41,695 bases of DNA, taken from positions 1 to 41,695 of the forward strand of contig DBJWYX010000001.1 in assembly GCA_052360825.1 (NCBI GenBank). Direction: 5' to 3'. A program made the translations under genes and the position numbers. The stretch is from Candidatus Wunengus sp. YC64. Lineage in GTDB: Bacteria > Planctomycetota > Brocadiia > Brocadiales > Brocadiaceae. The notes beneath the pieces are model-generated. The model did no database searches and was not told the DNA's origin. It saw nothing but the letters and a program-made list of their open reading frames with translations. Below are positions 18,290 through 41,393 of this stretch, piece after piece. The number at the start of each line of letters is the position of its first letter. Within the stretch, counting starts at the first letter, position 1.

Positions 18290-19834
18290 TTAAAGTGACT
18301 GTTTATTTGTCAAGCCTTGGCTAGTATTTATTGCCTTCAGCGTATCGATGGACTCCTTATGGGTTGGGTCTATGGCAAGTTCATTTAAAAGAGCCTTTTC
18401 CGCTAAATCATAATTCCCATTTTTCAGAAAACAGAGTGCACGAGCGTAATGAAGACCCGCAATCCGTAATCCAATACTATTAGATAATGATAGTGTATTG
18501 TTAAAAGCTTTTAGGGCGGATGAATACTCTTGTGATTCATAAAATCTTGATCCTGTATTAAGCAAATAGTGAATAGCCTCTTTGCCCTGTAACTTTACCG
18601 CTTCTGTAAGGTATGGGTCAGATGCAGATATTTGTTGAGGTGTATCGTCCTTTAAGCTTAGTAAGAATTCAGCTATATCTTTTGATGGTAAATATGGCGT
18701 TCTTCTCGACAGATGTTCTTTTTGAATATTAAATGCACCGGACAATATCTCCTCAATATCAGTGACCATTTCAAATTGTAGGGGAGAGGTCAATTGTTCA
18801 TTTACTAAACCTGGTAAATCCCTTATGTCGATTGTTCTGTTGGTAGGCCACTGCAAATCATCTAGCATGATGCCACCTGATTTTACTAAAACTGTTGGTA
18901 CTTTTAATAAAAACGCCTCTGCTGCCGTTGTAGAACCATAGTGGAAAAAGATGCCGCATTTCTGCATAACACTTGCAATGCTTACCGGGTCTGACAAATA
19001 GACAATGTTGGGATAATTTTCAAATTCTCTATAGCGATCAGTTCCTTTTCGAGCGTTAACAATATTTTCCGTCGGGTGGCTTTTAATAATAAATAAAATA
19101 TCTGAGTTATTTTTCGCAGTTTCAACAATAGTTTTTATCCATAGATCCCTCAATTGCGCAGTTTGTTCAGATAAGAGTATTTTTTGTGCCAGTTCATACT
19201 CAAATTCATTCTTATTATTAACATCAAACAAGTCTCCCGCCCTGATTAAATCTTCCCGTGTATAATCAGCTAGTGCGAAACCTGTTACAAAAAATAAAAT
19301 ATGTTCTCTGGGGTAATGTTGTATTCTGTTTCTCAATTTCTGAGGGATATCCAGCGTATTTAAACGGTTGTTTTCAAAATAACATTCGTAATTTGGATAA
19401 CCAAATGCTTTTACCCGTTCTTTCGAAGAAATTATGCTATGTCTTACCAGGCCTTTAGCGAGTAAATCTGCGGCTTTTTTACCCCATACTAATTCGTAGT
19501 CAACAATATTATTCCCATACCGGTCCAATCCTATAAGACTTTTAAGATGTTTTTCTGAATTAAAATTTAAAATTCCTTCAGTCCTGAAACAGATGATATG
19601 GCAATTTAGTAAATATTTGATGATATAAAACGGAGTTGAGACAGGATATGCGCTAAATGGGAAGGTAAAAATGATATTTGGAGAGAATTCTAAAATTTTT
19701 GATAAAAATTGATTCTCGTGGAAATCTAGTATTTTTGTGGTTGTTTCAAGTTTTTCCTGTACCATCCATTTTATAATTTTATTCATTATTTCGAGTTCAC
19801 GCTCAGGTTTATTCAGTACAAATAAAACTCTCAT
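18290..19834 (-). CDS. 514-aa protein of uncertain function, GT-B-like / surface-carbohydrate-biosynthesis type, with C-terminal TPR
   Basis: Two Rossmann-like halves (MRVLFVLNKP...; ILFIIKSHPTEN...FFHYGSTTAAEAFLLKVPTVLV) resemble capsule-synthesis or glycerophosphotransferase-like transferases. The C-terminal TPR reads YSSALKAFNNTL...GNYDLAEKALLNELAIDP. The assignment is by eye only. Confidence 0.45.
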   Translation of the reverse strand: MRVLFVLNKPERELEIMNKIIKWMVQEKLETTTKILDFHENQFLSKILEFSPNIIFTFPFSAYPVSTPFYIIKYLLNCHIICFRTEGILNFNSEKHLKSLIGLDRYGNNIVDYELVWGKKAADLLAKGLVRHSIISSKERVKAFGYPNYECYFENNRLNTLDIPQKLRNRIQHYPREHILFFVTGFALADYTREDLIRAGDLFDVNNKNEFEYELAQKILLSEQTAQLRDLWIKTIVETAKNNSDILFIIKSHPTENIVNARKGTDRYREFENYPNIVYLSDPVSIASVMQKCGIFFHYGSTTAAEAFLLKVPTVLVKSGGIMLDDLQWPTNRTIDIRDLPGLVNEQLTSPLQFEMVTDIEEILSGAFNIQKEHLSRRTPYLPSKDIAEFLLSLKDDTPQQISASDPYLTEAVKLQGKEAIHYLLNTGSRFYESQEYSSALKAFNNTLSLSNSIGLRIAGLHYARALCFLKNGNYDLAEKALLNELAIDPTHKESIDTLKAINTSQGLTNKQSL

Positions 19835-20970: not shown

Positions 20971-22074
20971 TTATTCAATGGGATTTTCCATCTCCCATTC
21001 TCCAATGTGATTCCTCTTCCACATGGGACCTCTAAATATTTCTGCAACATTCCAGAATTCATCCAGTGTAATATTGATATAATCACAGAATTTTTGAATA
21101 AACTTGATTCCACACTTGCCATCGTACTGTCTTACAAGTCTTACCCCTTCTTCTCTTGTTATTCTGCCTGCCCAAATATCAGCACATGCTTCATCGGTCG
21201 CAAAACCATAACCGAGTTTCATATGTTTTAACATTTGGTTTACAATACCGGTATCATCATCAAGGGCATGATAATTCGTATAACGTCCCAGTTCGTGTGG
21301 TTCTTCATTTCTTACTTTCAAGCCACGTGCAATCGAAAACATGGCGTGGGCATGAGGCGACCATCTTTTATAGTAACCAAGGTAGACCATCTTGATACCG
21401 GCCTCTTGTATTTCTTCTTGTGAGGGATATTGATAAGGCAGCAAGTCATTTAGTATTAAGTCTTCACAAAGCAGATGCGATGCGTTTCCTGACCAGCCAA
21501 GGGTGTTCTGTTTATTGATGTTGAATGCGTCTCCGGCGTTTTTATCTTTACTGTCATCGTCTAAGGTAGTAGTTTCAATATCAAAAATGACTAACGGCAC
21601 TTTATAAAAAAGAGCGGCTCTTACGGGTGTCGCATAGAGGGCATATTCTGAAGGCTTTACAGGATTTCCCCATTTATAAAATGCCATTTTTGCCAGTTTT
21701 CTGCATACCTTTGGATTCGATCTGAACATAAAACAATCAAAACCCATTTCCTGTAAATTATTTAAATTATGCCTTCCTATTTCTGTTATCTTATCAGGTG
21801 CCATATTCGCCAGTAAAACCCTCAATCCTAATTCATCTCTGGCAAAAAGCGCCATATAGGTGCTATCCTTTCCGCCACTAACGCCGACTACACAATCATA
21901 TTGGGCGTTTTTTCTCCTGGCATCCTCAGCTATTTTCAGAAGTTGTTTTTTCCTCGCATCCCAATCAACCTTATCAAGCGACCTATAATATCTGCAAAAA
22001 TTGCAAACACCCTTTTCATCAAAATTAATTCCCGCCCTTGTATCTGGTAAAACACAATTCTTACAGTATTTCAT
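20971..22074 (-). CDS. N-acetyl sugar amidotransferase (PP-loop ATP pyrophosphatase, PseA/WbpG/WbuX type)
   Basis: N-terminal CKNCVLPDT...CNFCRYY zinc ribbon, followed by the PP-loop VVGVSGGKDSTYMA. Length and layout are typical of the acetamidino-forming amidotransferases found in nonulosonic acid and O-antigen loci. Confidence 0.85.
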   Translation of the reverse strand: MKYCKNCVLPDTRAGINFDEKGVCNFCRYYRSLDKVDWDARKKQLLKIAEDARRKNAQYDCVVGVSGGKDSTYMALFARDELGLRVLLANMAPDKITEIGRHNLNNLQEMGFDCFMFRSNPKVCRKLAKMAFYKWGNPVKPSEYALYATPVRAALFYKVPLVIFDIETTTLDDDSKDKNAGDAFNINKQNTLGWSGNASHLLCEDLILNDLLPYQYPSQEEIQEAGIKMVYLGYYKRWSPHAHAMFSIARGLKVRNEEPHELGRYTNYHALDDDTGIVNQMLKHMKLGYGFATDEACADIWAGRITREEGVRLVRQYDGKCGIKFIQKFCDYINITLDEFWNVAEIFRGPMWKRNHIGEWEMENPIE

Positions 22075-22142: not shown

Positions 22143-22964
22143 CTATTTTTTCACTATTACCACACAAAGAACTCCATTTTCCTTATATTCATTACCTGGG
22201 ATATGTTCTGGAAAATTGACAGATACAGACACCTCTTGCCAGCCCAAAGAACTATCATGTTTGTAAATATATTCATATATTGTGGTGCCTGCAGGCATAC
22301 TTGATTTAATTTGATTCCATTTGTTTTCATTGTATTCTAAATGCATTGCATAACGCCCCTTGGAATCTTTTGTCGAAAAAACACCACCGCTTCCAAAAGG
22401 GACAGTAAGGATAAGTTTCCCCCCAGGACGAAGAATACGCATCATTTCTCGTACGGCCTTTTCATCTTCTTTACAATCATAAAGTGCTGGGAAAGAACCA
22501 TAATCAAGTGTAGGACGATCAAATACCGTATGAGGTGATTCAAGATACTTATCAAAACCTAAATGTTCTAATACAGATACACATAATACAACATCAAAGG
22601 TGTCAGTTTTGTAAGAACAAAACCTGATATCCTGGCAAGAAAAGCGGATAGAGTTTATTAAGTTTTGATCAAATTTTACAAAACGATTATGTACACGGTT
22701 AAAAGGAACAATATCACAAGCGTAGAGTTCTCTCTTTTGCTCAATAAGTGACAGTAAACCATAAAAATACGATGGATCAGCAAGGGAGGTTCCTATATCA
22801 ACAATTTTTCTTTCTTTTCCGATTGATGAAAATACAAAAGGAATTTCCACACACCGCTCTGATTCACCAGGAAAATATGGTTTATTACGGGAAATCCGAA
22901 AGGGTTCGCGGCTTTCTAAATAACGTTGTATATTTCCATATTTATTAGTGTGCATATGACCCAC
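22143..22964 (-). CDS. Class I SAM-dependent methyltransferase
   Basis: KIVDIGTS... motif I, then FDVVLCVSVLEHLGFD and ILRPGGKLILTVPFG (Methyltransf_11-like). It overlaps the upstream gene by 20 nt. Confidence 0.7.
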   Translation of the reverse strand: MGHMHTNKYGNIQRYLESREPFRISRNKPYFPGESERCVEIPFVFSSIGKERKIVDIGTSLADPSYFYGLLSLIEQKRELYACDIVPFNRVHNRFVKFDQNLINSIRFSCQDIRFCSYKTDTFDVVLCVSVLEHLGFDKYLESPHTVFDRPTLDYGSFPALYDCKEDEKAVREMMRILRPGGKLILTVPFGSGGVFSTKDSKGRYAMHLEYNENKWNQIKSSMPAGTTIYEYIYKHDSSLGWQEVSVSVNFPEHIPGNEYKENGVLCVVIVKK

Positions 22965-24588
22965 TCAACATTACGTCAATATCATACTCAAACTGTTTTA
23001 AATAATATGTCCAATCTGTTCCGTTATTTTCTCTTATGGCATCTTTTGCAAATTTGAGATACTCAATCCTCTGGTCTTTTCTTTTTTGTAATCGCATTAC
23101 TTCAGAAAGGCCTAATAAGGCAAAAACGTGGTTTGGGGCCATATCGAGTACATATCGAAAATCACGTTCAGCCTGCTGAAGTGAATGGTTTGTGCCTATT
23201 TTTAAATTGCGGTTATTGACAAAGTTCGACTTTAAGTTTGCCCTATAATTTAACTTGTTCAGTTCTTCTGATGTGTAATCAATGTGTTTCATGTCAGGCG
23301 AAAAATAGTTCTCGCCATAATGTATATCAAAGTCTTCGATTAACCTTCTCTCCTTGCTGTAAGTATACAGATCAGAACCTGGAAAAGGTTGAAAGCAATA
23401 AAAACATTTCCAATCAAGATCCAATGAATCTGCATAGTCAATAGTTTGTTTCACACTTGCCAGATCTTCAAAGGGAAATCCGACAATAAAGAAACCGATT
23501 GCCACTGCGTTACCATATTTCCTGATAAGCTTGATGGTATTTTCCGTTTCCTCAATCGTGAGTGGTTTCTTTACACTCTTGAGAGTATCATTCGAGCCAG
23601 ATTCAATCGCTAAATTGAACAAGCCAATGCCACTTTCATACATCATCTGAATAACGTTATCATCATTTATTGTGCGAATCGAGAGACCGCCGCCGGATAT
23701 CCACGTAATATTTAATTTTTTAAGCTCGGTTAAGAATTCAATGAGCCAGCTTTTATTGATGCTGATATTCTCGTCATTGAATACGACAGTATTTACATTA
23801 TATGAGTCTTTCAGGTAACGGATCTCATCAATCACGTTTGATATATTCCGTTTCCGCCAGCGTCTTTTCCAAAAACTGGAAGATGAGCAAAAGGTGCATG
23901 CATTGGGGCAACCTCTGGTTGCAGTTACGGTCGCGAGTTTTATTTCTTCCTTCTTCTTAATGCGGTATAAAACGTTTCTACCCTCACGAAAATAATAGTG
24001 AAAAAGTGTGTCCTCCCATGGGAGGCGTTTGACATTGGCAAATCCTTCCCAAAAAGTGCGTCTGGGGGTCTTTATAATATTTTCACCATTTTTAAATGCT
24101 ACCCCTTCGACATCCTTAAGTATTTTTTGATCATTTAAGGCATCTATGAGATCTGAAAAACCCAGTTCCCCCTCAGAAAGTATTGCATAATCAATATTAC
24201 TATCGGAAAGGCATTTGTCGGTTAAATGAGTAGGGTAGTGTCCACCGAAGACGACAAGAATATTTGAGTTAATATTTTTAATATGTTCTGCAAGTAAATG
24301 AAATACATTGATACTTGAGTAGTACAGTGTTGATATTGCAATGAGATCTGGTCGAAAGTCATTAATATGGGTTTTAAGAGTATCAACAATATTCATTTTT
24401 GATATGAACTTCATTTCAATATTCAAATCAACAAACTTAACTTCTAAATCACCCCTGTTTTTCATGAATGAATAAACATAAAGCAATCCCAGCGGGGGTT
24501 CATAATACGCATAGCCAGCAGAAGTGTTATTTTCTATCAATGATGGATCAGGGGGATTTAGAAATAATATTTTTCGAATCTTAACCAT
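22945..24588 (-). CDS. Cobalamin-binding-domain (class B) radical SAM enzyme, 547 aa, with TPR-like C-terminal tail
   Basis: The N-terminal B12-type Rossmann region reads ILVVFGGHYPT...DYAILSEGELGF. CX3CX2C is at RGCPNACTFC. The C-terminal helical repeat reads AERDFRYVLDMAPNHVFALLGLSEV. Confidence 0.85.
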   Translation of the reverse strand: MVKIRKILFLNPPDPSLIENNTSAGYAYYEPPLGLLYVYSFMKNRGDLEVKFVDLNIEMKFISKMNIVDTLKTHINDFRPDLIAISTLYYSSINVFHLLAEHIKNINSNILVVFGGHYPTHLTDKCLSDSNIDYAILSEGELGFSDLIDALNDQKILKDVEGVAFKNGENIIKTPRRTFWEGFANVKRLPWEDTLFHYYFREGRNVLYRIKKKEEIKLATVTATRGCPNACTFCSSSSFWKRRWRKRNISNVIDEIRYLKDSYNVNTVVFNDENISINKSWLIEFLTELKKLNITWISGGGLSIRTINDDNVIQMMYESGIGLFNLAIESGSNDTLKSVKKPLTIEETENTIKLIRKYGNAVAIGFFIVGFPFEDLASVKQTIDYADSLDLDWKCFYCFQPFPGSDLYTYSKERRLIEDFDIHYGENYFSPDMKHIDYTSEELNKLNYRANLKSNFVNNRNLKIGTNHSLQQAERDFRYVLDMAPNHVFALLGLSEVMRLQKRKDQRIEYLKFAKDAIRENNGTDWTYYLKQFEYDIDVMLSGSYAH

Positions 24589-24611
24589 ATCATTTATTAG
24601 TCGTTATACTC

Positions 24612-26255
24612 TTAACATAAGCTGAAGTTTATTTTTTCTTTAATATCTCTTTCAAAGAGATTTAAGTAGTTACCCCAAAAATAATTACTTTTAAAAATAT
24701 TATTTGCCTCATTATAATAATGCGTTGCTTGTTCTTTATTTCCTAAATTATCAAATGAATATCCTAAAAATAATAACCCAAAAGCATGATTAGGAACCAT
24801 CGTGATGACATTGTTGAAATCTTTGATGGCAAGATTGTAGTCTTGTTGTTTTAACGCATAATTTTCAATAAAGTTAATTTTAAGGTTATTGTAGTAATTA
24901 CAATCACTAAGCCAGTCTTTATCAAAGGATGGGGTAGTTAATATACTTGTGCTTTGAAGGTCTTTATAATTTATTTTTTTATTATTTATATACCCTTCTT
25001 TTATGCAATAGTCATATAAATCTGTTTTAGGAAAAGGTGAAAAAATATTTAAACTTACCCAGTTTACTTCAAGAGAGCTTGCAAAATCATATGTTTGTTG
25101 AATATCTTCTTTTGTCTCAAAGGGAAATCCTACAATAAACGAGGCCCCAATATATACTTCTTCATATTGTCTTAAATTATCAATTGCGTCTTGCACTATG
25201 TTCAAGGTCAAGGGCTTTTTTATTCTTTTAAGAGTATTGTTACAACCCGATTCAATTGCCAGGGAAAATAACTTATATCCTGATTCAACCATTTTTTTTA
25301 CCATATTTTTATTCGTTAAAGATTTTACATTTTCACCGGTTGACCCCCAATATTTAATAGGTCTTTCTTTGATTAGATAATCACAGATATCAATTACACG
25401 CTCTGAATTATGTGTAAATAAATCATCATTAATTTTAATGAAATTTATATTATATTTCTTTTTTAGATATCTAATCTCTTCTAAAACATTTTCGGCACTA
25501 CGGTATCTAATTTGGCCCCATACTTTTTTCGTAGCACAAAATCCACATTGAAATATACAGCCTCTTGATGAAACAATACTAATGGGTTTCTGATTATCCA
25601 TTATTTTTTGGTAGGAATTTCTTGCAAGTTCCCCGTAAAGATGAACGGGAAGATCTTCTAAATCAGGGAAAGGTAATTCGTCCAGATTCTGTATTTTTTC
25701 TTCCATGGGATTGACAATAGTTTTTCCTTTATCTCTATAGACAATTCCTTTTACATTGGATAATGGTATGTTATGGATAAACGCTTTTATAAGATTGTAA
25801 AAAACAATTTCACCTTCTGACAGCACAACTATATCCAAATTTACATCTTCCATAGCACATTCACTATCAAGTGTTGGATATGAGCCACCCATTACGGTTA
25901 TAATGTCTTTGTTTACATCCTTACATAATGCTATTGCTTTATGTGCCTGACCAACTACAGCATGAGAGAAAGCACTAATGCCTACAATATCAGGGTTAAA
26001 ATCTTCAATTTTCTTTTCTACCCTCCGCCATAAAATGTCCATATTGGCTTTATTATCACAAAACGTAATATATTGAATAGCATCAATATTTGAATCATAT
26101 ATCTCAATTTCTATTTCAGGAAGTTTACTTTTAACATATGATTTAATATAAGCTAAGCCCAATGGAAGTTCGGCGTCCCCTCCCTTTTTCAATATTTTTT
26201 CGTTATCATATTTACCTTCATAGGTATTGAATGGAAGTATTAGTAGTATTTTCAT
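24612..26255 (-). CDS. Cobalamin-binding-domain (class B) radical SAM enzyme, 547 aa, tandem paralog of 22945..24588
   Basis: IITVMGGSYPT...DIVVLSEGEIVF, CX3CX2C at RGCIFQCGFC, and the shared block LAIESG.NNTLKRIKKPLT / FIVGFPFE. The C-terminal tail reads AIKDFNNVITMVPNHAFGLLFLGYS. It is the same length as its neighbour. Confidence 0.85.
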   Translation of the reverse strand: MKILLILPFNTYEGKYDNEKILKKGGDAELPLGLAYIKSYVKSKLPEIEIEIYDSNIDAIQYITFCDNKANMDILWRRVEKKIEDFNPDIVGISAFSHAVVGQAHKAIALCKDVNKDIITVMGGSYPTLDSECAMEDVNLDIVVLSEGEIVFYNLIKAFIHNIPLSNVKGIVYRDKGKTIVNPMEEKIQNLDELPFPDLEDLPVHLYGELARNSYQKIMDNQKPISIVSSRGCIFQCGFCATKKVWGQIRYRSAENVLEEIRYLKKKYNINFIKINDDLFTHNSERVIDICDYLIKERPIKYWGSTGENVKSLTNKNMVKKMVESGYKLFSLAIESGCNNTLKRIKKPLTLNIVQDAIDNLRQYEEVYIGASFIVGFPFETKEDIQQTYDFASSLEVNWVSLNIFSPFPKTDLYDYCIKEGYINNKKINYKDLQSTSILTTPSFDKDWLSDCNYYNNLKINFIENYALKQQDYNLAIKDFNNVITMVPNHAFGLLFLGYSFDNLGNKEQATHYYNEANNIFKSNYFWGNYLNLFERDIKEKINFSLC

Positions 26256-26350
26256 TAAAGTTCTTTCTAAAGTTATTATAGATTTTTCAGCATGACATTA
26301 ATTTTTACTCTGCATAGTTACGAATTGACGGATAATTTATTATTTATTAG

Positions 26351-27766
26351 TTAGGTGACAGCCTTCCAATTCTTTGCTATGTAATTCAAAATAATCTGGT
26401 ATTTTGAATTAGTTGAATCATATTTGAGACTTCTTAATAATAAATGTACATTTTTTAACAGATGAAATAATTTATTAGGGGGGAGCTTTAAAAGATAAAG
26501 GATTGGTTTTTCAAATATTGGGTACTTAATCAGATAATAAAATAATTTATCGACATTAATTAACCTGTTAATGTTGTCTTGTCGAATGAGTGATGCATTT
26601 TTGTTTAAGTTACTTATTTCATTTAAAGTTGGTTCATGGTCAAGATAGCCATTTTTTACGGAATCTCTTGTTAGTGACAGACCGGGGTAGGGGATTAAAA
26701 CATTAGAGTGATAGGTGTTTGCCTTCAGTTTCCTACACAGACGAATGGTATCCATTGCTTGGTCTATCGTTTCGCCTGGCCAGCCAAAAATGATATCCGC
26801 CCCAACACGGATTTTGTATTTATGGCAAAGGTGAAAAGCTGCTTCAATCTGTTCATTTGACATCTGTCTTCCTGCGATATTTTTCCGAATTGATGGATTA
26901 CCTGATTGAATGCCAAATGTGATTCTGTCACAGCCAGATTCCTTCATGAGCAAGATGAATTCTTCATCAATATTTTCTATACGGCAATTGCATAAAAAGG
27001 GGGGGAGTTTGCGGTTTTTATATTCCTCTAAAAAGGGTTTGAGCCATTTCTTATGGGCATTGAATGTACCGTCTTGAAAATGAACCCACTTTAGTCCATA
27101 GGTATTTTTCACATATTCAATTTCACGAAAGACTGATTCTGTATCTCTCATGCGCCAATATATTTCATCATAAAATTTCTTTAATTCTGTATTGTAGCAA
27201 AAAGTACAACTATAAGCACATCCTCGAGATATAATAAAGTTTTTAGTATCATTATCTGCCAGATCACGGTATTTGTAATATAAGTCTCTGTCGGGGTCGG
27301 GCAAGACATTTAAATCAGAGGTAAGTTTTATATTATTGTTTATAAATATGTTGTCATTGGCTTCACGATATCCTATTCCCGGCACATTTTTTAATGATTC
27401 ACCATTGTTACATAATTGTAAAAAAAGGGGGAGTGTGTATTCACCATCGCCTCGAAGGACAAAGTCCACCTGAGTATTTTTAATGATCTCAGGGAAAATG
27501 AGTGTAAATGGGCCCCCCACAACCGTTTTGGATTTAGGCAGACATTGTTTCAGCCTTGAAAAGGACTCAAGCATGAATGACTCTTCACCAATAAAAAGAC
27601 TGTAAAGGATATAATCAGGCTGAAATGTAATTATCCGATCATAAAAATGAGGCTCTAAATTTTTTATGAAGATATCACACGCAACATCGATTTCTTTTAG
27701 GCATCCTGAAAGTTGTTGGACGCCAATTTTTTCATATGCGTCACGTTGAATAAATGCGACTTTCAT
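26351..27766 (-). CDS. Cobalamin-binding-domain (class B) radical SAM enzyme, 471 aa, more divergent
   Basis: N-terminal TVVGGPFTLIFPE...DFVLRGDGEYT and CX3CX2C at RGCAYSCTFC. Radical SAM core blocks are ITFGIQSGNPSIRK and IIFGWPGET. Confidence 0.8.
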   Translation of the reverse strand: MKVAFIQRDAYEKIGVQQLSGCLKEIDVACDIFIKNLEPHFYDRIITFQPDYILYSLFIGEESFMLESFSRLKQCLPKSKTVVGGPFTLIFPEIIKNTQVDFVLRGDGEYTLPLFLQLCNNGESLKNVPGIGYREANDNIFINNNIKLTSDLNVLPDPDRDLYYKYRDLADNDTKNFIISRGCAYSCTFCYNTELKKFYDEIYWRMRDTESVFREIEYVKNTYGLKWVHFQDGTFNAHKKWLKPFLEEYKNRKLPPFLCNCRIENIDEEFILLMKESGCDRITFGIQSGNPSIRKNIAGRQMSNEQIEAAFHLCHKYKIRVGADIIFGWPGETIDQAMDTIRLCRKLKANTYHSNVLIPYPGLSLTRDSVKNGYLDHEPTLNEISNLNKNASLIRQDNINRLINVDKLFYYLIKYPIFEKPILYLLKLPPNKLFHLLKNVHLLLRSLKYDSTNSKYQIILNYIAKNWKAVT

Positions 27767-27821: not shown

Positions 27822-28679
27822 CTAGCACTTATGCACAGACACCTTTCTTTCGACATGGCAAATATTTGACTTTAACCAGCCATAATAACGTAATAAAACG
27901 ATAATGAGCAGGAATGGCAAGCAACCTATTTCTGTGAACTTAATCCGTGATAAGGGGACATAAAAATCATGAAGTAAAGGATGCAGAAAAGATTTCAATT
28001 TTCTCAATATCCCCCAATTATTTCTCTGTGTGCAATAAAATAAATAATCTCCCCTTCCATAACGCGTCCATCTTTCTATGACTGATGAAAAGATATCAAA
28101 GCCAATTTCAAAACACCGAGTGTTGGAGATGGCAAAAAGCAGACCATCTCGCGACATTCTATTACACAATTCTGTGTCGTCGCTGTTTTTCATGAAGGGG
28201 TTGTATTTATATTTTTTTAAAATATCTGTTTTAAATAATGTTGGAGTACCTACCACATTTTTGTAGCCGGGGGTATATTTTCTGATACGGTAAATATTTT
28301 GAGCCCATCCCCAATAGCTGCCAGTATCACGGAGGATTGTTACTGCTGATACAATGGCACAGTTGTGTAGTTCTAAATAATTAATCATCTCTTTCAAAGA
28401 ACCTTTGGGCATAATATTATCAGGTCCGACAAAACAAATATATTTTGTATTAGACCGTTCAATGCCTATGTTTCTTGCATTGGCTAAACCTTTCGCCTGA
28501 TCATCTACTATTTCATCAACATAATCCTGTGCTATTATAGTGGTTTTATCTGTTGAACCGCCATCGACTAAAATAGTGCGTGCAGGGTTATTCTCCTTAA
28601 TAGAATCAAGGCAGTCCTTTATCGTGTTTTCTACGTTATAGCTACAAACTACAATGGTTAAATCAAGCTTGCTTATCAT
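27822..28679 (-). CDS. GT2 family glycosyltransferase (285 aa) with one C-terminal hydrophobic segment
   Basis: LTIVVCSYNVENTI...ILVDGGSTDKT...VGPDN, and the C-terminal segment IGCLPFLLIIVLLRYYGWL. Confidence 0.8.
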   Translation of the reverse strand: MISKLDLTIVVCSYNVENTIKDCLDSIKENNPARTILVDGGSTDKTTIIAQDYVDEIVDDQAKGLANARNIGIERSNTKYICFVGPDNIMPKGSLKEMINYLELHNCAIVSAVTILRDTGSYWGWAQNIYRIRKYTPGYKNVVGTPTLFKTDILKKYKYNPFMKNSDDTELCNRMSRDGLLFAISNTRCFEIGFDIFSSVIERWTRYGRGDYLFYCTQRNNWGILRKLKSFLHPLLHDFYVPLSRIKFTEIGCLPFLLIIVLLRYYGWLKSNICHVERKVSVHKC

Positions 28680-28721: not shown

Positions 28722-30068
28722 CTACCAGTACAAACCGTAATAGTTTGAATTGTGCTTATGGTTATTTCCAATTCGAACCAAGTCTAAAACAATTTTATCG
28801 GGACTCAATTGTTCCAGCCATTCATCAAGCCCTGGATATTTATTGAAAATTACAAACAATTCACAGCGCTCAGTAAAATCACGCAAGTCGCTAAACAACA
28901 TTTCTCCTATATTGGGAAGTTCTGCATATAAAAACTCTAAATTCGCTCCAATGAGCTTATCAGGGTAAAGATTTGGATCATAAACTGAAACTCCATATTT
29001 TCCACTATAGAGCATTTTGGCAATTTCAACCGCGGGACTATTTCTCAAGTCATCTGTGTCTGGCTTAAATGTTAAACCAAAGAACCCTATTTTTCTTTTG
29101 CCGAAGGATCTTATCCATGTAGCGATGTATTTAATTTGATTAAAATTGCTATTCTCAATTGAGTTTATAAGCGTTGTGGGAAAATCAAAATCTTTGGTTT
29201 TAAAACAAAATGCCCTGACGTCTTTCGGCAGGCATGAACCTCCATAAGGTTTTCCTGGCGTAAGATAAGCCCTGCTTAGGTTAAGTTTGTCATCTTTACA
29301 AAAGAGATTCATTACCTCATGCGAGTCTATACCCAGACTCCTGCAGGCAAGCCCGATTTCATTTGCAAAGGTAATTTTTAAGGCATGAAAGATGTTGTCG
29401 GCATATTTGGCCATTTGAGCAGATGAAATGTTTGTTACGATTTTTTCACCATCCACACAGTCATACAAGTGAAGAAGTGTCTGCCCAAGTGTTTCATCTC
29501 CTTCGTATACGCCGATTACTGTTTTGGCCGGATGATAAAAATCATAAATTGCAGAGCCCTCTCGTAAAAATTCAGGGTTATAGGCAATATGGACTTTATC
29601 AGGAGAAAGATTTTTTTTATAGTACAGTAGGGGGTAGAGTACTTTATCCATTATCCCAGGAGGCATAGTACTGCGGTAGACAAGGATGTGTTCTTTCCCT
29701 AGTGTTGATAAAATATCAGCAATTTCTTGGGTAACTCGGGTAATATATGTCATGTCAATGTCACCATCATTATGGCTCGGCGTTCCTACACAGATCATTG
29801 ACAATTCGGTTTGCTCAAGAGCATCTTTCAGATTTAAAGTAGCAGTTAGGCGTCTTTTCTTAACGCCAGCAAGAATTAAATCATCTAATTCTGGCTCTGT
29901 TACAGGGGAGTGCCCTGATTTTATACAGGATACTTTGTATTCTTGTATATCAACACCGATGACTTCATGCCCTTCCTGAGAAAAGCAGCCGCAACTCGTG
30001 CTTCCGACATAGCCCAAACCAATAATACTGATCTTCAATAAACCTCTCCTCGGAGAAAAAGTATTCAT
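28722..30068 (-). CDS. Nucleotide-sugar 6-dehydrogenase (UDP-glucose/GDP-mannose dehydrogenase family; N-terminus resembles AlgD-type GDP-mannose 6-dehydrogenase)
   Basis: KISIIGLGYVGSTSCGCFSQEGHEVIGVDI Rossmann fold and the catalytic Cys motif GGSCLPKD. The C-terminal nucleotide-sugar-binding domain reads FGLTFKPDTDDLRNSP. Confidence 0.8.
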   Translation of the reverse strand: MNTFSPRRGLLKISIIGLGYVGSTSCGCFSQEGHEVIGVDIQEYKVSCIKSGHSPVTEPELDDLILAGVKKRRLTATLNLKDALEQTELSMICVGTPSHNDGDIDMTYITRVTQEIADILSTLGKEHILVYRSTMPPGIMDKVLYPLLYYKKNLSPDKVHIAYNPEFLREGSAIYDFYHPAKTVIGVYEGDETLGQTLLHLYDCVDGEKIVTNISSAQMAKYADNIFHALKITFANEIGLACRSLGIDSHEVMNLFCKDDKLNLSRAYLTPGKPYGGSCLPKDVRAFCFKTKDFDFPTTLINSIENSNFNQIKYIATWIRSFGKRKIGFFGLTFKPDTDDLRNSPAVEIAKMLYSGKYGVSVYDPNLYPDKLIGANLEFLYAELPNIGEMLFSDLRDFTERCELFVIFNKYPGLDEWLEQLSPDKIVLDLVRIGNNHKHNSNYYGLYW

Positions 30069-30071
30069 TCC

Positions 30072-31361
30072 TCAATGTTTCCGGAAAACAGATTCGACAA
30101 TCTTTCCTTTAAGAAGTGATTTCAGCTCTTTTGATTCATCGTTATTCTTTATCAAAGAAAAAATCTGATCGTAAGCGTTTAGTGTTTGATTAATTTCATT
30201 CTCGGTGTGGGAAACACTTATGATATGATACCCAGCGTATAAGATTCCTCGTTTTATCATCTCTTGCTGAACAATACTTTTAAGAAGTAAGTCATCATTA
30301 CCGTGTTTATCCGTAAAAAACATAAACGTCTTAGGAGGATACCCTTTCAAATGTATTCGGCGTTCAAGATCATATTTATTTAATAAGATACTTACCCCGT
30401 CTATGAGTATATTGCCCATTTTCCATATATGAGATATCGCATTAGTTGTCGCTAATTCCTTTATTACCGTTAATCCTGCGGTAATACCAACCAAGTCTCC
30501 CCCAAAAGTGAAAGAATAAAAGATTTCATCAAATATTTTCATAATGTCACTATTGCCTACAATAACTGAAATTGGGAATCCGTTACCCAATGCTTTGCCA
30601 AAACAAGCAAGATCAGGGGTAATGCCAAAGAATTCTTGCGCACCACCGATGGCCCATCGGAAACCAGTCCAGCATTCGTCGTAAATAACCAGTGCACCGT
30701 TGTTGTGGGCTATTTTATTGATTCTTTCTAAAAAATTATCTTTCGGGGGTTCCAAACCAACAGGTTCGAGAATAACACATGCAATTTGGTCGGGATGGAG
30801 AGAGAATAGTCTTTCAAGCGAAGCAGGATTATTGTATTCAAAGGTAACCGTTAATTCTTTAATGGCTTTTGGCACGCCGAGGTTACGCGTGGTAGTACCA
30901 ATATACCAATCCTGCCACCCATGATAGCCACAGCAGGCAATCATATTCCTTCCGGTATATGCTCTTGCAGTACGAACTGCCCCTGATGTTGCATCAGATC
31001 CATTTTTACCAAATCTCACCATCTCGGCACAGGGAATGGTTTCACATAATTTCTCAGCCAGTTCAATTTCCTTGTGATGCGGTAATGAGAAGGCGACTCC
31101 TTTGTCTATCTGAGATTTAACTGCCTCGTTAACCTTTGGATTATTGTGCCCCAGGATAATTGGACCTAAGGCCATGGGCCAATCTATAAATTTGTTTCCA
31201 TCTACGTCCCATACAAAGCAGCCATCAGCTCTATCTAAAAATATTGGTGATACACCGAATGGGTATTGTGTCCATCCCTTGCTAAACGTCTGTGTGCCGG
31301 AGGGTATATACTTTATAGCATTATCAAACATACCCAGGGATTGGCTGAAAGTTAGAGGCAT
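30072..31361 (-). CDS. Class III PLP-dependent aminotransferase (glutamate-1-semialdehyde aminomutase-like)
   Basis: FVWDVDGNKFIDW...GPIILGHNNP, VRFGKNGSDAT, IYDECWTGFRW, and the PLP-lysine context CFGKALGNGFPIS. Confidence 0.85.
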   Translation of the reverse strand: MPLTFSQSLGMFDNAIKYIPSGTQTFSKGWTQYPFGVSPIFLDRADGCFVWDVDGNKFIDWPMALGPIILGHNNPKVNEAVKSQIDKGVAFSLPHHKEIELAEKLCETIPCAEMVRFGKNGSDATSGAVRTARAYTGRNMIACCGYHGWQDWYIGTTTRNLGVPKAIKELTVTFEYNNPASLERLFSLHPDQIACVILEPVGLEPPKDNFLERINKIAHNNGALVIYDECWTGFRWAIGGAQEFFGITPDLACFGKALGNGFPISVIVGNSDIMKIFDEIFYSFTFGGDLVGITAGLTVIKELATTNAISHIWKMGNILIDGVSILLNKYDLERRIHLKGYPPKTFMFFTDKHGNDDLLLKSIVQQEMIKRGILYAGYHIISVSHTENEINQTLNAYDQIFSLIKNNDESKELKSLLKGKIVESVFRKH

Positions 31362-32206
31362 ACCATATCCTTTGTTAAAGATTTCTTATAACCCTCATCG
31401 CGCAGGATATGTTTATTAATTACCCTAATTTCAGGATATTTATTAAGTGTCTGGAGGATGTCTCGCCATGAAGCATCTACAAGTGAAATTGACAAGGATT
31501 TTGACAATTCTTGTAAGAATATAAAATCGTCAGGTTCATCGATGGTCCAACGTTCATCTCTAAGGTTTTCAGGACATGAGTAATTAATAGCTTGAAACAT
31601 ATATTCTGATGTTTCATTTATTGGTATGCATACATCTGGAAAGATTTCTTCAGTTTCGTAATTGAGGGATTTATAAAGGTTCTTGCCGTGTAATTGGGTG
31701 CGTTTGAGAATCCAAGGAACAACGTGCTCTCTTTCTGAAGCAAGTTTTGCATTCTTCCATGCCAATTCTAAAGCATTAAAAGAGAATACGCATACATCGA
31801 GACCATCAGGAAAAGCAGTGGCAACTGCGAGATCTACATTCGACTGATGGTAGCTCTTGATTACGTTATCTATGATATCTGGATCTACCAAAGGGCAATC
31901 TCCCGTTAATCTCACAATGTGATTGACCCCATATGACAAGGATGCTTGATAGTATCGGTCTAAAACATCTTTTTCTGATCCTCTGAAACAGGGAATTTCG
32001 TGTTGTTGGGCAACATACTCAATGGCGCCGTTTGCGGGTTCTGTTGATGTCACAACAACGATACCATCTAATTCTTTTGAACGTTTTAACCTTTCCAGCA
32101 TAACTCCTATAACAGGTTTCCCTTGTAAAGACATAAGGACCTTTCCTGGTAATCGTGATGAGTGTACTCTGGCCTGCAATAAAGCAACAGTATTATGCAT
32201 TTTCAT
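31352..32206 (-). CDS. SpsF-type cytidylyltransferase (CMP-ulosonic acid synthetase family candidate)
   Basis: ALLQARVHSSRLPGKVL...GKPVI...VVVTS...GSEKDVLDRYY...RLTGDCPLVDP, as in the CTP_transf_3/SpsF family. It overlaps the downstream aminotransferase gene by 10 nt. Confidence 0.75.
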   Translation of the reverse strand: MKMHNTVALLQARVHSSRLPGKVLMSLQGKPVIGVMLERLKRSKELDGIVVVTSTEPANGAIEYVAQQHEIPCFRGSEKDVLDRYYQASLSYGVNHIVRLTGDCPLVDPDIIDNVIKSYHQSNVDLAVATAFPDGLDVCVFSFNALELAWKNAKLASEREHVVPWILKRTQLHGKNLYKSLNYETEEIFPDVCIPINETSEYMFQAINYSCPENLRDERWTIDEPDDFIFLQELSKSLSISLVDASWRDILQTLNKYPEIRVINKHILRDEGYKKSLTKDMVCL

Positions 32207-32371: not shown

Positions 32372-33052
32372 TCATTTTGTAAATTCTGATGAATAATAAG
32401 TGTGTTCTACCACACAATTATTCTTTTGAGCTACTGCGCATAAATATTCTCTGTTTTTTTCTTCATCAATAGTAAGATTTTGCTTATGAAGTCTGTATCT
32501 GTAAAGTGGCAAGTTTATACGTTCTATTTTATAGTGTTTTTCGAAACGTATTCGAAAATCAACATCCTCTCCAATATGAAGTTCAGTATCATATAAACCT
32601 ATATTTATCATCAGACCTTTTTTAAACATGATCCCGCAAGCAATGGGCCGTTCATGGACACTCATTTTATTGAGAATCGTTTCCTTGTCATCGACGAGAA
32701 AATAGTCAGTTGCCACGGCATCAGAATGATTAAATTGCATGTATAGATAGCAAAATTTCAGAAAATCAGGATGCAAATAATCATCCGCATCAAGATTGAC
32801 GATGTAATCACCTTTTGCATTCATAATGCCTTGATTACGAGAATAAGGTAAGCCTTTGTTATCAGCATGATCTATTACACGAATCCAATGACCGTAGGAC
32901 TCTAAAATATATTTTGTGGAATCCTTACTGCTGTCGTTGACAACGATAATTTCAAAATCTGTTTTGGAAAGAGATTGCTCTATGCAGCTTCTGATTGCCC
33001 TTGCAATGTATTTATCATAATTGAATGTCGGAATAATTATGCTTATTTTCAT
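32372..33052 (-). CDS. GT2 family glycosyltransferase (226 aa)
   Basis: ISIIIPTFNYDKYI...IIVVNDSSKDST...LDADD. Confidence 0.85.
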   Translation of the reverse strand: MKISIIIPTFNYDKYIARAIRSCIEQSLSKTDFEIIVVNDSSKDSTKYILESYGHWIRVIDHADNKGLPYSRNQGIMNAKGDYIVNLDADDYLHPDFLKFCYLYMQFNHSDAVATDYFLVDDKETILNKMSVHERPIACGIMFKKGLMINIGLYDTELHIGEDVDFRIRFEKHYKIERINLPLYRYRLHKQNLTIDEEKNREYLCAVAQKNNCVVEHTYYSSEFTK

Positions 33053-37215: not shown

Positions 37216-37494
37216 TTATGAAAGATGTTTTGAAGAAACCATTTCTTCAGATGTGGACTTTTTTACACCTTTTCGCCATATTTGGGCAATTTCTATTAGA
37301 TCATGTTTAGACACTGTGGAAGCCTTCTGGTTTTCCTCTTGAATCTTTTCGAAAATTTCTTCCCGATGAACCTTGATATTTTTTGGCGCTATGATGCCCA
37401 ACTTAACCTGTTTGCCCTGGCATTCTAATAGGGTAACTTTTATTTCGCTTCCTATGGTGATGCTTTCTCCTAACTTCCTTGTCAGTATAAGCAC
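37216..37494 (-). CDS. csrA: Carbon storage regulator CsrA (92 aa, GTG start, long C-terminal extension)
   Basis: [47 protein letters not shown] is the canonical CsrA core. It lies immediately downstream of fliW. The start codon is the complement of 37492..37494, which is GTG. Confidence 0.92.
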
Positions 37495-37523
37495 GGTACT
37501 TTACCTTTCTGAAAGTTGATCAA

Positions 37524-37994
37524 TTAATATCGAATGAGCTGTTGGTTTAAGCTGTAATAGTCCTCTGTGAGCACGACCTGTTTCCCCATTTTATTTTTCA
37601 TGTTAATGAGTATCGGTCCTTTTAGATTTAGCGTTACATCTTCTGGCTTTTTCCCCAGGGTAACAATACAAAACATTTCAACGTCTTTTTCCTTTTTGAT
37701 GTTAAGCAAGACAAGATCATCTTTTGATAGAGAGGGTTTATAATCAGAGAAAAAGAGTGTTGGATTAAGGATGGGAAAAGCAACCATCGGGTCTTCCAAA
37801 GAAACCAGCCATTCAAAAGGAAGACATTCTTCAACAGCTATAATGGCAAATTGTTTCAGCTCTTCAAATCCCAATAATCCTTGTTCAAATGTTATTATAT
37901 TTTCCTTTTCAATGCTCAAGTTGCCGAAATTACTCGTTGATAATTTTACTACCGTACTGCTTTCTTTCATTGGCCTTTCTTCCATTTTTAACAT
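37524..37994 (-). CDS. fliW: Flagellar assembly factor FliW (CsrA antagonist)
   Basis: NIITFEQGLLGFEELKQFAII...PFEWLVSLEDPMVAFPILNP...INMKNKMGKQVVL. An AGGAG sits 6 nt upstream of the ATG at 37994. Confidence 0.9.
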   Translation of the reverse strand: MLKMEERPMKESSTVVKLSTSNFGNLSIEKENIITFEQGLLGFEELKQFAIIAVEECLPFEWLVSLEDPMVAFPILNPTLFFSDYKPSLSKDDLVLLNIKKEKDVEMFCIVTLGKKPEDVTLNLKGPILINMKNKMGKQVVLTEDYYSLNQQLIRY

Positions 37995-38048
37995 GTTATG
38001 CTCCTGTCGTGGATAAAGTTTAAAGAAATAAAATTATTAGTGAAATTT

Positions 38049-41379: not shown

Positions 41380-41393
41380 ACTTTCTATTCTCC

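What the first reader, a model, noticed from the sequence alone, without database searches (positions are those of the whole stretch)
22945..27766. Three consecutive cobalamin-type (class B) radical SAM enzymes inside a glycan island; two are equal-length tandem paralogs with TPR-like tails
All three have an N-terminal B12-binding-type domain plus CX3CX2C (RGCPNACTFC, RGCIFQCGFC, RGCAYSCTFC). Class B radical SAM enzymes typically methylate unactivated carbon or phosphorus centres; GenK, Fom3 and PoyB/C are precedents. Three of them sit beside seven conventional SAM methyltransferase domains. This suggests C-methylation or another radical tailoring step on the sugars, or directly on the protein substrate. 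The two 547-aa copies share collinear blocks (LAIESG.N.TLK..KKPLT, F.VGFPFE, PNH.F.LL) and clearly arose by duplication.
Basis: partly seen in the sequence, partly recalled or inferred. Interest (0 to 1): 0.78.

Follow-up and report, generated by a model that had tools for sequence, protein, structure and literature searches.

The report
Three B12-radical-SAM enzymes tailoring a nonulosonic acid
Three intact cobalamin-type radical SAM genes lie in a row inside a flagellum-linked sugar island; each belongs to its own uncharacterised enzyme family that, across very distant microbes, is found next to the genes that make and CMP-activate sialic-acid-like nine-carbon sugars, so they most likely perform an undescribed radical modification (probably C-methylation) of that sugar.

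Summary
Three minus-strand ORFs (26351-27766, 471 aa; 24612-26255, 547 aa; 22945-24588, 547 aa) each carry a B12-binding domain, a radical SAM core and the quoted CX3CX2C motif. The two 547-aa proteins are collinear paralogs (34% identity, E 3e-88) with a TPR-like helical tail.

Two corrections. The duplication is ancient, not a local tandem event: each of the three proteins has its own ortholog group in other phyla. The island is specifically a nonulosonic-acid (NulO) island (NeuB, CMP-transferase, acetamidino-forming amidotransferase) placed next to flgN-flgK-flgL-fliW-csrA.

The new result is context. All 15 ortholog loci examined (Patescibacteria, Nitrospirales, Fibrobacterota, and loci whose proteins sources label Woesearchaeota/Aenigmarchaeota) carry NeuB and/or the CMP-transferase. 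Only 3 of 49 loci of distant B12-rSAM relatives do (p = 5e-12). The 471-aa enzyme co-varies perfectly with a small GT2 and a class-III aminotransferase.

None of the three reaches the cut-off of any named family (BchE, HpnJ, PhpK, MgmA, AprD4). The nearest solved structures share 14-18% identity.

Best reading: NulO-tailoring class B radical SAM enzymes, probably C-methyltransferases. The chemistry is inferred. No paper in the searched library links radical SAM enzymes to NulO biosynthesis.

The parts
26351..27766 (-). rSAM-3: 471-aa B12-domain radical SAM enzyme (CX3CX2C at C183/C187/C190). It has its own ortholog group at 38-68% identity.
   Evidence: AF2 model pLDDT 94. Nearest folds are MgmA, TsrM, AprD4, CysS and OxsB at 14-17% identity. 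It always occurs with the GT2 at 27822-28679 and the class-III aminotransferase.
24612..26255 (-). rSAM-2: 547-aa B12-domain radical SAM enzyme with a TPR-like tail. About 10 orthologs at 54-67% identity.
   Evidence: Orthologs lie in NulO loci L001, L018/L019, L020 and L021.
22945..24588 (-). rSAM-1: 547-aa B12-domain radical SAM enzyme with a conserved helical, TPR-like tail. About 55 orthologs at 47-65% identity.
   Evidence: AF2 model pLDDT 92.4, pTM 0.90. Fold search. In Patescibacteria it sits directly downstream of the CMP-transferase, and the gene calls overlap by 14 nt in L002/L003.
22143..22964 (-). 273-aa class I SAM methyltransferase. Its start overlaps the stop of rSAM-1.
   Evidence: Pfam Methyltransf_11, 39.6 bits. 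Overlap seen. Homologs sit next to the rSAM-1/2-type gene in L005 (31%), L009 (48%) and L021 (38%).
27822..28679 (-). 285-aa GT2 glycosyltransferase immediately upstream of rSAM-3.
   Evidence: Pfam Glycos_transf_2, 84.9 bits. A homolog is present in every locus that has an rSAM-3-type gene, next to it in most.
28722..30068 (-). Nucleotide-sugar dehydrogenase (UDP-Glc/UDP-ManNAc dehydrogenase family).
   Evidence: TIGR03026, 365 bits against cut-off 190. Also present in L009, L021 and L022.
30072..31361 (-). Class-III (GSA-aminomutase-like) PLP aminotransferase. It co-varies with rSAM-3.
   Evidence: Pfam Aminotran_3, 178 bits. PRK06209, 414 bits against cut-off 486. Presence/absence matrix.
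31352..32206 (-). CMP-ulosonic-acid-type cytidylyltransferase.
   Evidence: Pfam CTP_transf_3, 102.7 bits. Conserved neighbour of the rSAM families.
32372..33052 (-). 226-aa GT2 lying between NeuB and the CMP-transferase.
   Evidence: Conserved in L001 (72%) and L018 (49%).
33056..34120 (-). NeuB-family nonulosonic acid synthase.
   Evidence: Pfam NeuB, 264 bits. Closer to the NeuB_NnaB model (340 bits, cut-off 400) than to PseI (253 bits).
34156..35160 (-). 334-aa radical SAM/SPASM enzyme at the head of the NulO cassette.
   Evidence: Conserved in L001 (71%) and L018 (60%).
20971..22074 (-). N-acetyl sugar amidotransferase (PseA/WbpG type, forms acetamidino groups).
   Evidence: TIGR03573, 328.7 bits against cut-off 203.
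18290..19834 (-). 514-aa candidate NulO transferase with a TPR tail.
   Evidence: Resembles the BFO_1060 glycosyltransferase family, 106 bits, below cut-off 200. TPR_2 hit. 61% ortholog in L001.
37216..41651 (-). Flagellar genes flgN (partial), flgK, flgL, fliW and csrA that border the island.
   Evidence: FlgL: TIGR02550, 229.5 bits against cut-off 127.

Best explanation
The three genes encode members of three distinct, uncharacterised ortholog groups of class-B-type (B12-domain) radical SAM enzymes. These groups are dedicated tailoring enzymes of a CMP-nonulosonic-acid (NulO) pathway. In this organism the pathway supplies a flagellum-associated glycosylation island.

Shown here:
- Intact domains, cluster motifs and predicted fold.
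- Three separate ortholog groups.
- Strict genomic linkage of all three groups to NeuB and the CMP-transferase across phyla.
- Perfect co-variation of rSAM-3 with a small GT2 and a class-III aminotransferase.
- Close coupling of rSAM-1 to the CMP-transferase in Patescibacteria, and to a class I methyltransferase here.

Inferred mechanism: each enzyme uses its [4Fe-4S] cluster and SAM to make a 5'-deoxyadenosyl radical. This radical abstracts a hydrogen from an unactivated carbon of the NulO, most likely the CMP-activated sugar or its immediate precursor. Methylcobalamin held by the N-terminal domain then delivers a methyl group. A second SAM re-methylates the cobalamin.

Two precedents suggest how the modules work; both are recalled from established knowledge, not tested here. 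For the rSAM-3 / aminotransferase / rSAM-SPASM module, the precedent is gentamicin biosynthesis: GenK C-methylates a carbinol carbon, GenQ oxidises it, and the class-III aminotransferase GenB1 aminates it. For rSAM-1 sitting next to the CMP-transferase, the precedent is Fom1/Fom3, where a class B methyltransferase acts on a CMP-activated substrate.

The helical TPR-like tail, with its invariant Asn-rich motif, is read as the substrate-capping domain.
For: Domains and motifs.

Fold: AF2 models have pLDDT 92 and 94. The nearest structures are TsrM, OxsB, MgmA, TokK and CysS. The N-terminal domain of the rSAM-1 family profile aligns to the cobalamin domains of OxsB, TokK, CysS and TsrM. AprD4 matches only the core.

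Separate ortholog groups.

Linkage: 15 of 15 ortholog loci carry NeuB and/or the CMP-transferase, against 3 of 49 loci (8 kb or longer) of 25-35%-identical B12-rSAM relatives; Fisher p = 5e-12.

rSAM-1 and rSAM-3 family members share at least nine contigs (equal contig lengths).

The GT2 / rSAM-3 / aminotransferase trio is all present in 7 loci plus the window. It is absent from the other 8, apart from one 24%-identical rSAM-3-like gene in L011.

The same kinds of parts recur in another order in L021: three B12-rSAMs in a row plus methyltransferase, GT2, aminotransferase, CMP-transferase and sugar dehydrogenase.

Island identity: NeuB, CMP-transferase and the acetamidino-forming amidotransferase above its cut-off.

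Chemical plausibility: CMP-linked ulosonic acids with an 'elongated carbon backbone' (C10 marker fragment) and unknown biosynthesis were reported in Magnetospirillum gryphiswaldense (preprint 10.64898/2026.04.20.719630).
Against: - No biochemical datum exists for any member.
- Methyl transfer is not a defining property of the B12-domain radical SAM fold. OxsB, BchE and HpnJ do other chemistry. AprD4, which to my knowledge works without cobalamin, is among the nearest structures at TM about 0.7.
- The best partial NCBIfam hits are BchE, HpnJ and P-methyltransferases, not sugar C-methyltransferases.
- Many host lineages (Patescibacteria, DPANN) generally lack cobalamin synthesis. This is my own knowledge and was not tested.
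- The window has no cobalamin gene and no cobalamin riboswitch.
- The loci are not phylogenetically independent, and some are near-duplicates (L002/L003/L010), so the p-value overstates the support.
- The role of the co-varying GT2 is unexplained. It could mean that rSAM-3 acts on a different sugar.
The C10-sugar report is therefore only a plausibility argument.
Confidence: 0.5

Rival explanations
1. Same substrate class (NulO or CMP-NulO), but non-methylating radical chemistry. Candidates are epimerisation, AprD4-like diol dehydration/deoxygenation followed by transamination by the class-III aminotransferase, or an OxsB/HpnJ/BchE-like rearrangement or oxidation.
For: AprD4, a sugar diol dehydratase, is among the closest structures, at TM 0.69-0.76. 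The top partial family hits are BchE and HpnJ, which to my knowledge are not methyltransferases. The window lacks a PseB/LegB-type 4,6-dehydratase and a DegT aminotransferase. Deoxy and amino positions might therefore be installed late by radical dehydration plus the co-varying aminotransferase.
Against: NCBIfam AprD4 scores are only 40-55 bits against cut-off 500. The N-terminal domains pass the Pfam B12-binding cut-off, and that of the rSAM-1 family aligns to true cobalamin binders rather than to AprD4. Other loci do carry dehydratase/DegT genes. The contig is only 41.7 kb, so the missing genes may lie elsewhere in the genome.
Confidence: 0.27
2. One or more of the enzymes, especially rSAM-3 with its partner GT2, act on a different sugar of the glycan. 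This could be a uronic acid or a GT2 product on a lipid or protein carrier. In that case only the genomic address is shared with the NulO genes.
For: A GT2 homolog is present in every locus with rSAM-3. A nucleotide-sugar dehydrogenase recurs in the window, L009, L021 and L022. The island encodes many further GT and MT domains.
Against: In the Patescibacteria loci, rSAM-1 occurs with NeuB, the CMP-transferase and DegT but without that GT2 or the dehydrogenase. Every locus that carries rSAM-3 also carries NeuB and/or the CMP-transferase.
Confidence: 0.13
3. The enzymes modify the flagellin polypeptide or the protein-bound glycan. The TPR-like tail would act as a protein-docking module, as TPR domains do in the flagellin glycosyltransferase FlmG.
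For: The tail is TPR-like. Nearly every large protein of the island carries TPRs. Class B enzymes that methylate peptides exist, for example PoyC, MgmA and ApyD. MgmA is the best sequence match in the PDB.
Against: Orthologs are mostly in lineages that, to my knowledge, lack flagella (Patescibacteria, Fibrobacterota, DPANN-type archaea). No flagellar genes appear in their flanks. The compact model (pTM 0.90) suggests the tail packs onto the core. Its invariant residues are polar and Asn-rich. No precursor-peptide-like gene lies adjacent.
Confidence: 0.07
4. The automatic labels attached to many homologs are correct: anaerobic Mg-protoporphyrin cyclase BchE, YgiQ, or hopanoid enzymes.
For: JGI names. 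Best partial hits are BchE and HpnJ.
Against: Scores are 85-170 bits against cut-offs of 481-578. There are no tetrapyrrole or hopanoid genes in any neighbourhood.
Confidence: 0.02

Closest known systems
GenK / GenD1 with GenQ and GenB1 (gentamicin biosynthesis)
   Same: A class B radical SAM enzyme acts on an unactivated sugar carbon, and it works together with a dehydrogenase and a class-III PLP aminotransferase. That logic matches the rSAM-3 / class-III aminotransferase / rSAM-SPASM co-occurrence. The pathway details are from established knowledge, not tested here.
   Different: No sequence-level membership was shown. None of the three reaches the cut-off of any named NCBIfam family, and no gentamicin-pathway model appeared among the listed hits. 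The presumed substrate is a nine-carbon ulosonic acid or nucleotide sugar, not a pseudotrisaccharide. The setting is primary cell-surface glycan metabolism, not an antibiotic cluster.
Fom3 with Fom1 (fosfomycin biosynthesis)
   Same: A class B radical SAM C-methyltransferase whose real substrate is CMP-activated, with the cytidylyltransferase encoded alongside. This parallels the adjacent CMP-transferase/rSAM-1 gene pair in Patescibacteria. The Fom1/Fom3 facts are from established knowledge.
   Different: The substrate there is a phosphonate, not a sugar acid. Homology beyond the superfamily level was not tested. The best P-methyltransferase models (Sden_1168, PhpK) score 88-167 bits against cut-offs of 575-600.
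MgmA (MCR glutamine C-methyltransferase, PDB 9ccb), TsrM, TokK, CysS, OxsB
   Same: These are the nearest solved structures and the best sequence matches in the PDB. They share the Rossmann-type B12 domain, the radical SAM barrel and a C-terminal helical domain.
   Different: Only 14-18% identity. TIGR04014 (MgmA) scores 72-108 bits against cut-off 360. The substrates differ (protein, tryptophan, carbapenem, nucleoside). The tail here is a TPR-like repeat with its own invariant motif.
AprD4 (apramycin radical SAM diol dehydratase)
   Same: It acts on an aminosugar, has a B12-like N-terminal domain and a similar overall fold (TM 0.63-0.76).
   Different: To my knowledge AprD4 works without cobalamin. 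Its NCBIfam model scores 40-55 bits against cut-off 500. The rSAM-1 family profile aligns to AprD4 only over the core.
Canonical Pse/Leg/Neu nonulosonic acid clusters and flagellin glycosylation islands (Campylobacter, Helicobacter, Tannerella)
   Same: NeuB-family synthase, CMP-transferase, a PseA-type amidotransferase, a candidate BFO_1060-like NulO transferase and a location next to flagellar genes.
   Different: To my knowledge the described pathways contain no radical SAM step. Searches of the paper library found no paper linking radical SAM enzymes to NulO biosynthesis. This island has five radical SAM genes, lacks Maf-type transferases and lacks the usual 4,6-dehydratase and DegT genes within the window.

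Membership tests
Radical SAM superfamily (PF04055) | CX3CX2C [4Fe-4S] motif and a radical SAM core above the Pfam gathering score | tested here: met
   73.1, 70.6 and 91.0 bits against 29.5. The cysteines are invariant in the family alignments.
Class B (cobalamin-dependent) radical SAM enzymes | N-terminal B12-binding Rossmann domain fused to the radical SAM core | tested here: met
   PF02310 scores 61.8, 52.1 and 36.5 bits against 32.1. The predicted folds are nearest TsrM, OxsB, MgmA, TokK and CysS. The N-terminal domain of the rSAM-1 family profile aligns to their cobalamin domains; rSAM-3's aligns to CysS's.
Class B (cobalamin-dependent) radical SAM enzymes | Actual cobalamin binding, and methylcobalamin-mediated methyl transfer | not testable with these tools
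   No universal cobalamin-ligand motif exists for this class. AprD4 shows that the fold can, to my knowledge, work without the cofactor. The window has no cobalamin genes and no cobalamin riboswitch.
BchE (TIGR02026), anaerobic Mg-protoporphyrin cyclase | Score at or above the curated cut-off of 481 bits | tested here: not met
   169.7, 149.2 and 84.7 bits. No tetrapyrrole genes nearby.
HpnJ / HpnR hopanoid radical SAM enzymes (TIGR03471, TIGR04367) | Score at or above the curated cut-off (578 and 650 bits) | tested here: not met
   HpnJ: 129, 153 and 128 bits. HpnR: 86, 62 and 44 bits.
P-methyltransferases (Sden_1168 NF038361; PhpK TIGR04479) | Score at or above the curated cut-off (575 and 600 bits) | tested here: not met
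   94-167 bits and 88-103 bits.
MgmA (TIGR04014), MCR glutamine C-methyltransferase | Score at or above the curated cut-off of 360 bits | tested here: not met
   106, 108 and 72 bits. 17-18% identity to 9ccb in the structural alignments.
AprD4 radical SAM diol dehydratase (NF033070) | Score at or above the curated cut-off of 500 bits | tested here: not met
   40, 53 and 55 bits.
GenK / Fom3-type sugar or CMP-substrate C-methyltransferases | Orthology to GenK or Fom3 | not tested
   No GenK or Fom3 profile or sequence was available in the tools. The resemblance lies in pathway logic only.
TPR repeat proteins | Pfam TPR model above its gathering score in the C-terminal tail | tested here: inconclusive
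   rSAM-2 scores 23 bits against 27-28; rSAM-1 has no hit. However, the model shows helical hairpins, the tail matches repeated units in long repeat proteins, and relatives carry Pfam TPR hits.
Nonulosonic acid biosynthesis cluster | NeuB-family synthase plus a CMP-ulosonate cytidylyltransferase in the same operon-like array | tested here: met
   PF03102, 264 bits; PF02348, 102.7 bits. The specific type (Neu, Leg or Pse) is unresolved: NeuB_NnaB 340 bits against 400, PseI 253 against 340.
Flagellin glycosylation island | Location next to flagellar genes, plus a flagellin gene and a flagellin glycosyltransferase | tested here: inconclusive
   flgN, flgK, flgL, fliW and csrA border the island. 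There is no flagellin gene and no Maf-type transferase in the window. The BFO_1060-like candidate transferase is below its cut-off.

The most novel reading that the evidence does not exclude
These families are the missing enzymes that build carbon-extended or C-branched ulosonic acids. They would add methyl groups to unactivated carbons of a CMP-activated nine-carbon sugar, and in the rSAM-3 module the methylated carbon would then be oxidised and transaminated. The result would be 'C10' or branched sialic-acid-like sugars on the surfaces of flagellated anaerobes, Patescibacteria and DPANN archaea. This would be the first radical SAM step in nonulosonic acid biosynthesis. It would also give a biosynthetic explanation for the unassigned C10 ulosonic acids seen by mass spectrometry.
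Probability: 0.25. Interest if true: 0.8.

Novelty: new variant of a known kind. Interest (0 to 1): 0.62.

Why it matters
Nonulosonic acids such as sialic, legionaminic and pseudaminic acid shape motility, phage recognition and immune evasion. To my knowledge their known biosynthesis contains no radical chemistry.

This analysis finds three uncharacterised B12-domain radical SAM families locked to NeuB and the CMP-transferase. They occur from a flagellated anaerobe to Patescibacteria and to loci labelled DPANN archaea. That points to a widespread, undescribed tailoring step on these sugars.

It also gives defined candidate genes for testing where carbon-extended ulosonic acids come from. Finally, it flags a cobalamin requirement in reduced-genome symbionts that probably cannot make the cofactor.

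Tried and rejected
- Five literature searches found no paper that links radical SAM enzymes to nonulosonic, pseudaminic or legionaminic acid, neuB or flagellin glycosylation. The 'neuB' hits did not concern NulO biosynthesis.
- An Rfam scan of the window found nothing, so there is no cobalamin riboswitch.
- The source organism could not be named. The cluster look-up shows only that the window is a complete 41,695-bp NCBI contig and that near-identical island proteins recur in 9-32 metagenome sequences.
- The metagenome scan with the rSAM-3 profile returned only 25-35% relatives, not orthologs. I used them as a background set instead.
- I tested whether the 263-265-aa proteins next to the rSAM genes in L018 and L001 are homologs of the window's 273-aa methyltransferase. 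They are not detectably so by BLASTP, although they are orthologs of each other at 57% identity.
- The ORF-poor stretch at 35.2-36.1 kb looked like a possible transposase remnant, but its ORFs have no Pfam hit.
- A link to the Magnetospirillum C10 sugars could not be made.
- BchE, YgiQ and HpnJ annotations were rejected on family cut-offs and context.

Full report
**1. Observation**

The window carries an almost unbroken minus-strand gene array. The three ORFs named in the finding are exactly where stated:
- 26351-27766, 471 aa, here called rSAM-3.
- 24612-26255, 547 aa, rSAM-2.
- 22945-24588, 547 aa, rSAM-1.

Each passes the Pfam gathering scores for Radical_SAM and for the B12-binding domain. 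Each carries the quoted CX3CX2C motif. The cysteines are invariant in the family alignments.

rSAM-1 and rSAM-2 align over 521 residues at 34% identity, E 3e-88. rSAM-3 is 25% identical to either.

Gaps between the genes are 95 nt and 23 nt. The next gene, a 273-aa class I methyltransferase, starts 11-20 nt before the rSAM-1 stop codon. This fits a single co-translated unit.

The lowest G+C of the window (0.31-0.32, against 0.35-0.42 over most of it) lies over rSAM-2 and rSAM-3.

**2. The tails**

Pfam gives only sub-threshold TPR hits for rSAM-2 and none for rSAM-1. Three other results support a TPR-like tail:
- The AlphaFold model of rSAM-1 (pLDDT 92.4, pTM 0.90) ends in helical hairpins at residues 440-546.
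- The isolated tail matches 3-15 repeated stretches in long repeat proteins in a library of 1.8 billion proteins.
- More distant family members have Pfam TPR hits.

Part of the tail motif (N457, N461, F462, A476, F480; H490 nearly so) is invariant across rSAM-1, rSAM-2 and intermediate subfamilies. Within the rSAM-1 family further tail residues are invariant, including N451, N455, N459, N461, Q472, D476, F477 and H487. I read the tail as an integral substrate-capping domain. That reading is inference.

**3. The setting**

One end of the window holds flgN (partial), flgK, flgL, fliW, csrA and a TPR protein. After about 0.9 kb with no convincing ORF comes the island:
- a radical SAM/SPASM enzyme;
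- a NeuB-family synthase;
- a GT2;
- a CMP-type cytidylyltransferase;
- a class-III aminotransferase;
- a nucleotide-sugar dehydrogenase;
- a second GT2;
- the three B12-rSAMs and the methyltransferase;
- an N-acetyl sugar amidotransferase, above its curated cut-off; this family forms acetamidino groups;
- another methyltransferase;
- a BFO_1060-like candidate NulO transferase with a TPR tail;
- a 1024-aa fusion of radical SAM/SPASM, methyltransferase and a GH127-like domain;
- four giant GT/MT/TPR proteins.

This is therefore a nonulosonic-acid (NulO) island next to flagellar genes. It contains five radical SAM genes in total. No flagellin gene lies in the window.

**4. Three families, not one recent duplication**

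Each protein has its own ortholog group:
- rSAM-1: about 55 proteins at 47-65% identity.
- rSAM-2: about 10 proteins at 54-67%.
- rSAM-3: about 50 proteins at 38-68%.

Sources label some rSAM-1 and rSAM-3 orthologs as Patescibacteria (Staskawiczbacteria). One rSAM-2 ortholog is labelled Woesearchaeota. One contig, L001, carries orthologs of all three, and there the rSAM-1 and rSAM-2 orthologs are separated by two other genes. The paralogy is real but old.

**5. Conserved neighbourhoods**

I fetched 15 distinct ortholog loci and compared them with the window proteins by tblastn. The loci come from Patescibacteria, Nitrospirales, Fibrobacterota, two unnamed NCBI assemblies, and metagenome contigs whose proteins sources label Woesearchaeota or Aenigmarchaeota.

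- All 15 carry NeuB and/or the CMP-transferase within the flanks. In most, the rSAM-1/2-type gene lies within 1-8 kb of them.
- Only 3 of 49 loci (8 kb or longer) of 25-35%-identical B12-rSAM relatives do so. Fisher p = 5e-12. The loci are not independent.
- In the Patescibacteria loci the order is aminotransferase (DegT), CMP-transferase, rSAM-1, WbqC. The CMP-transferase and rSAM-1 gene calls overlap by 14 nt in L002/L003.
- rSAM-3 co-varies perfectly with the 285-aa GT2 and the class-III aminotransferase. All three are present in 7 loci plus the window. They are absent from the other 8, apart from one 24%-identical rSAM-3-like gene in L011.
- L021 repeats the three-in-a-row arrangement with the same accessory genes in a different order.

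**6. Family placement**

No NCBIfam model reaches its cut-off. BchE, HpnJ, the Sden_1168 and PhpK P-methyltransferases, MgmA, ApyD and AprD4 all score 3-10 times too low.

The best PDB sequence match is MgmA (9ccb), E 6e-16 and 2e-15. Structure searches with both models return TsrM, OxsB, MgmA, TokK, CysS and AprD4 at 14-18% identity.

The N-terminal domain of the rSAM-1 family profile aligns to the cobalamin domains of OxsB, TokK, CysS and TsrM. AprD4 matches only the core.

The proteins therefore belong to the B12-domain radical SAM class but to no characterised family.

**7. Mechanism**

What is shown is the architecture and the linkage to NulO genes. What follows is inferred.

Each enzyme would make a 5'-deoxyadenosyl radical, abstract a hydrogen from an unactivated NulO carbon, and transfer a methyl group from methylcobalamin.

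Two precedents, from established knowledge and not tested here, fit the modules:
- GenK/GenQ/GenB1 in gentamicin biosynthesis: C-methylation of a carbinol carbon, then oxidation, then class-III transamination. This matches the rSAM-3 / aminotransferase / SPASM set.
- Fom1/Fom3 in fosfomycin biosynthesis: a class B methyltransferase acting on a CMP-activated substrate. This matches the CMP-transferase/rSAM-1 pair.

A 2026 preprint reports CMP-linked ulosonic acids with an elongated (C10) backbone and unknown origin in Magnetospirillum gryphiswaldense. This shows that such products exist in nature. I could not connect that organism to these families.

**8. Rivals**

- Non-methylating radical chemistry on the same sugar remains quite possible, for example AprD4-like dehydration followed by transamination, epimerisation or rearrangement.
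- rSAM-3 might act on another sugar made by its partner GT2.
- Action on flagellin itself is unlikely. Most orthologs are in lineages that, to my knowledge, lack flagella.
- The BchE/YgiQ labels on many homologs fail both the cut-offs and the context test.

**9. Novelty**

The searches of 8 million open papers and preprints found no paper that links radical SAM enzymes to NulO biosynthesis or flagellin glycosylation. The enzyme class is known. Its use in this pathway appears undescribed, as does its spread across Patescibacteria, DPANN-labelled archaea, Nitrospirales and Fibrobacterota. I rate it a new variant of a known kind, with interest 0.62.

Noticed in passing
window 15198-18272 (-): A 1024-aa fusion protein: radical SAM/SPASM domain, class I methyltransferase domain and a C-terminal GH127/GH88/LanC-like domain. 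It is 86% identical to a protein in L001, and its 90%-identity cluster holds 14 sequences from metagenomes and assemblies. To my knowledge this domain combination has not been characterised.
   Followed up: partly
window 34156-35160 (-): A 334-aa radical SAM/SPASM enzyme heads the NeuB cassette. It is conserved with NeuB, GT2, CMP-transferase and aminotransferase in L001 (71%) and in the Woesearchaeota-labelled locus L018 (60%). Its best partial hit is the 'spiro-SPASM' family. It could be a BtrN-like sugar dehydrogenase that feeds the aminotransferase.
   Followed up: partly
window 35200-36090: About 0.9 kb between the flagellar block and the glycan island has no convincing ORF. Its short ORFs have no Pfam hit. 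It might be a promoter region or a degraded insertion.
   Followed up: partly
window 24000-27000: G+C drops to 0.31-0.32 over rSAM-2 and rSAM-3, against 0.35-0.42 over most of the window. Together with the cross-phylum distribution of the cassette, this hints at horizontal acquisition.
   Followed up: no
window 18290-19834 (-): A 514-aa protein with a BFO_1060-like (Tannerella NulO-transferase family) N-terminal part and a C-terminal TPR. It is a candidate flagellin NulO transferase, analogous in layout to FlmG. No Maf-type gene is present in the window.
   Followed up: partly
window 816-15176 (-): Four very large proteins (918-1403 aa) combine GT2, GT1/GT4, TylF, class I methyltransferase and TPR domains. 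One of them has three GT2 domains in a single chain. This suggests an assembly line for a long, heavily methylated glycan.
   Followed up: no
L001 7695-8492 and L018 11631-12422: A conserved protein of about 265 aa with no Pfam hit (57% identity between two distant loci) sits beside the rSAM genes. It carries a methyltransferase-like 'DFVIDGGTMEHCF' motif. It has no detectable homolog in the window.
   Followed up: partly
L079, L055, L096, L089 (metagenome loci): Arrays of several B12-domain radical SAM genes in a row (up to about seven tblastn matches in L079) occur in metagenome contigs that show no NeuB match. Multi-copy class B arrays therefore seem to be a wider, unexplored theme.
   Followed up: no
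L002 / L010 15669-17180: The Patescibacteria locus carries a second NeuB fused to a cupin domain (503 aa). It is followed by an epimerase, a SPASM radical SAM gene and a 606-aa B12-rSAM gene. This looks like a second, different radical-SAM-containing ulosonic acid cassette in the same genome.
   Followed up: no
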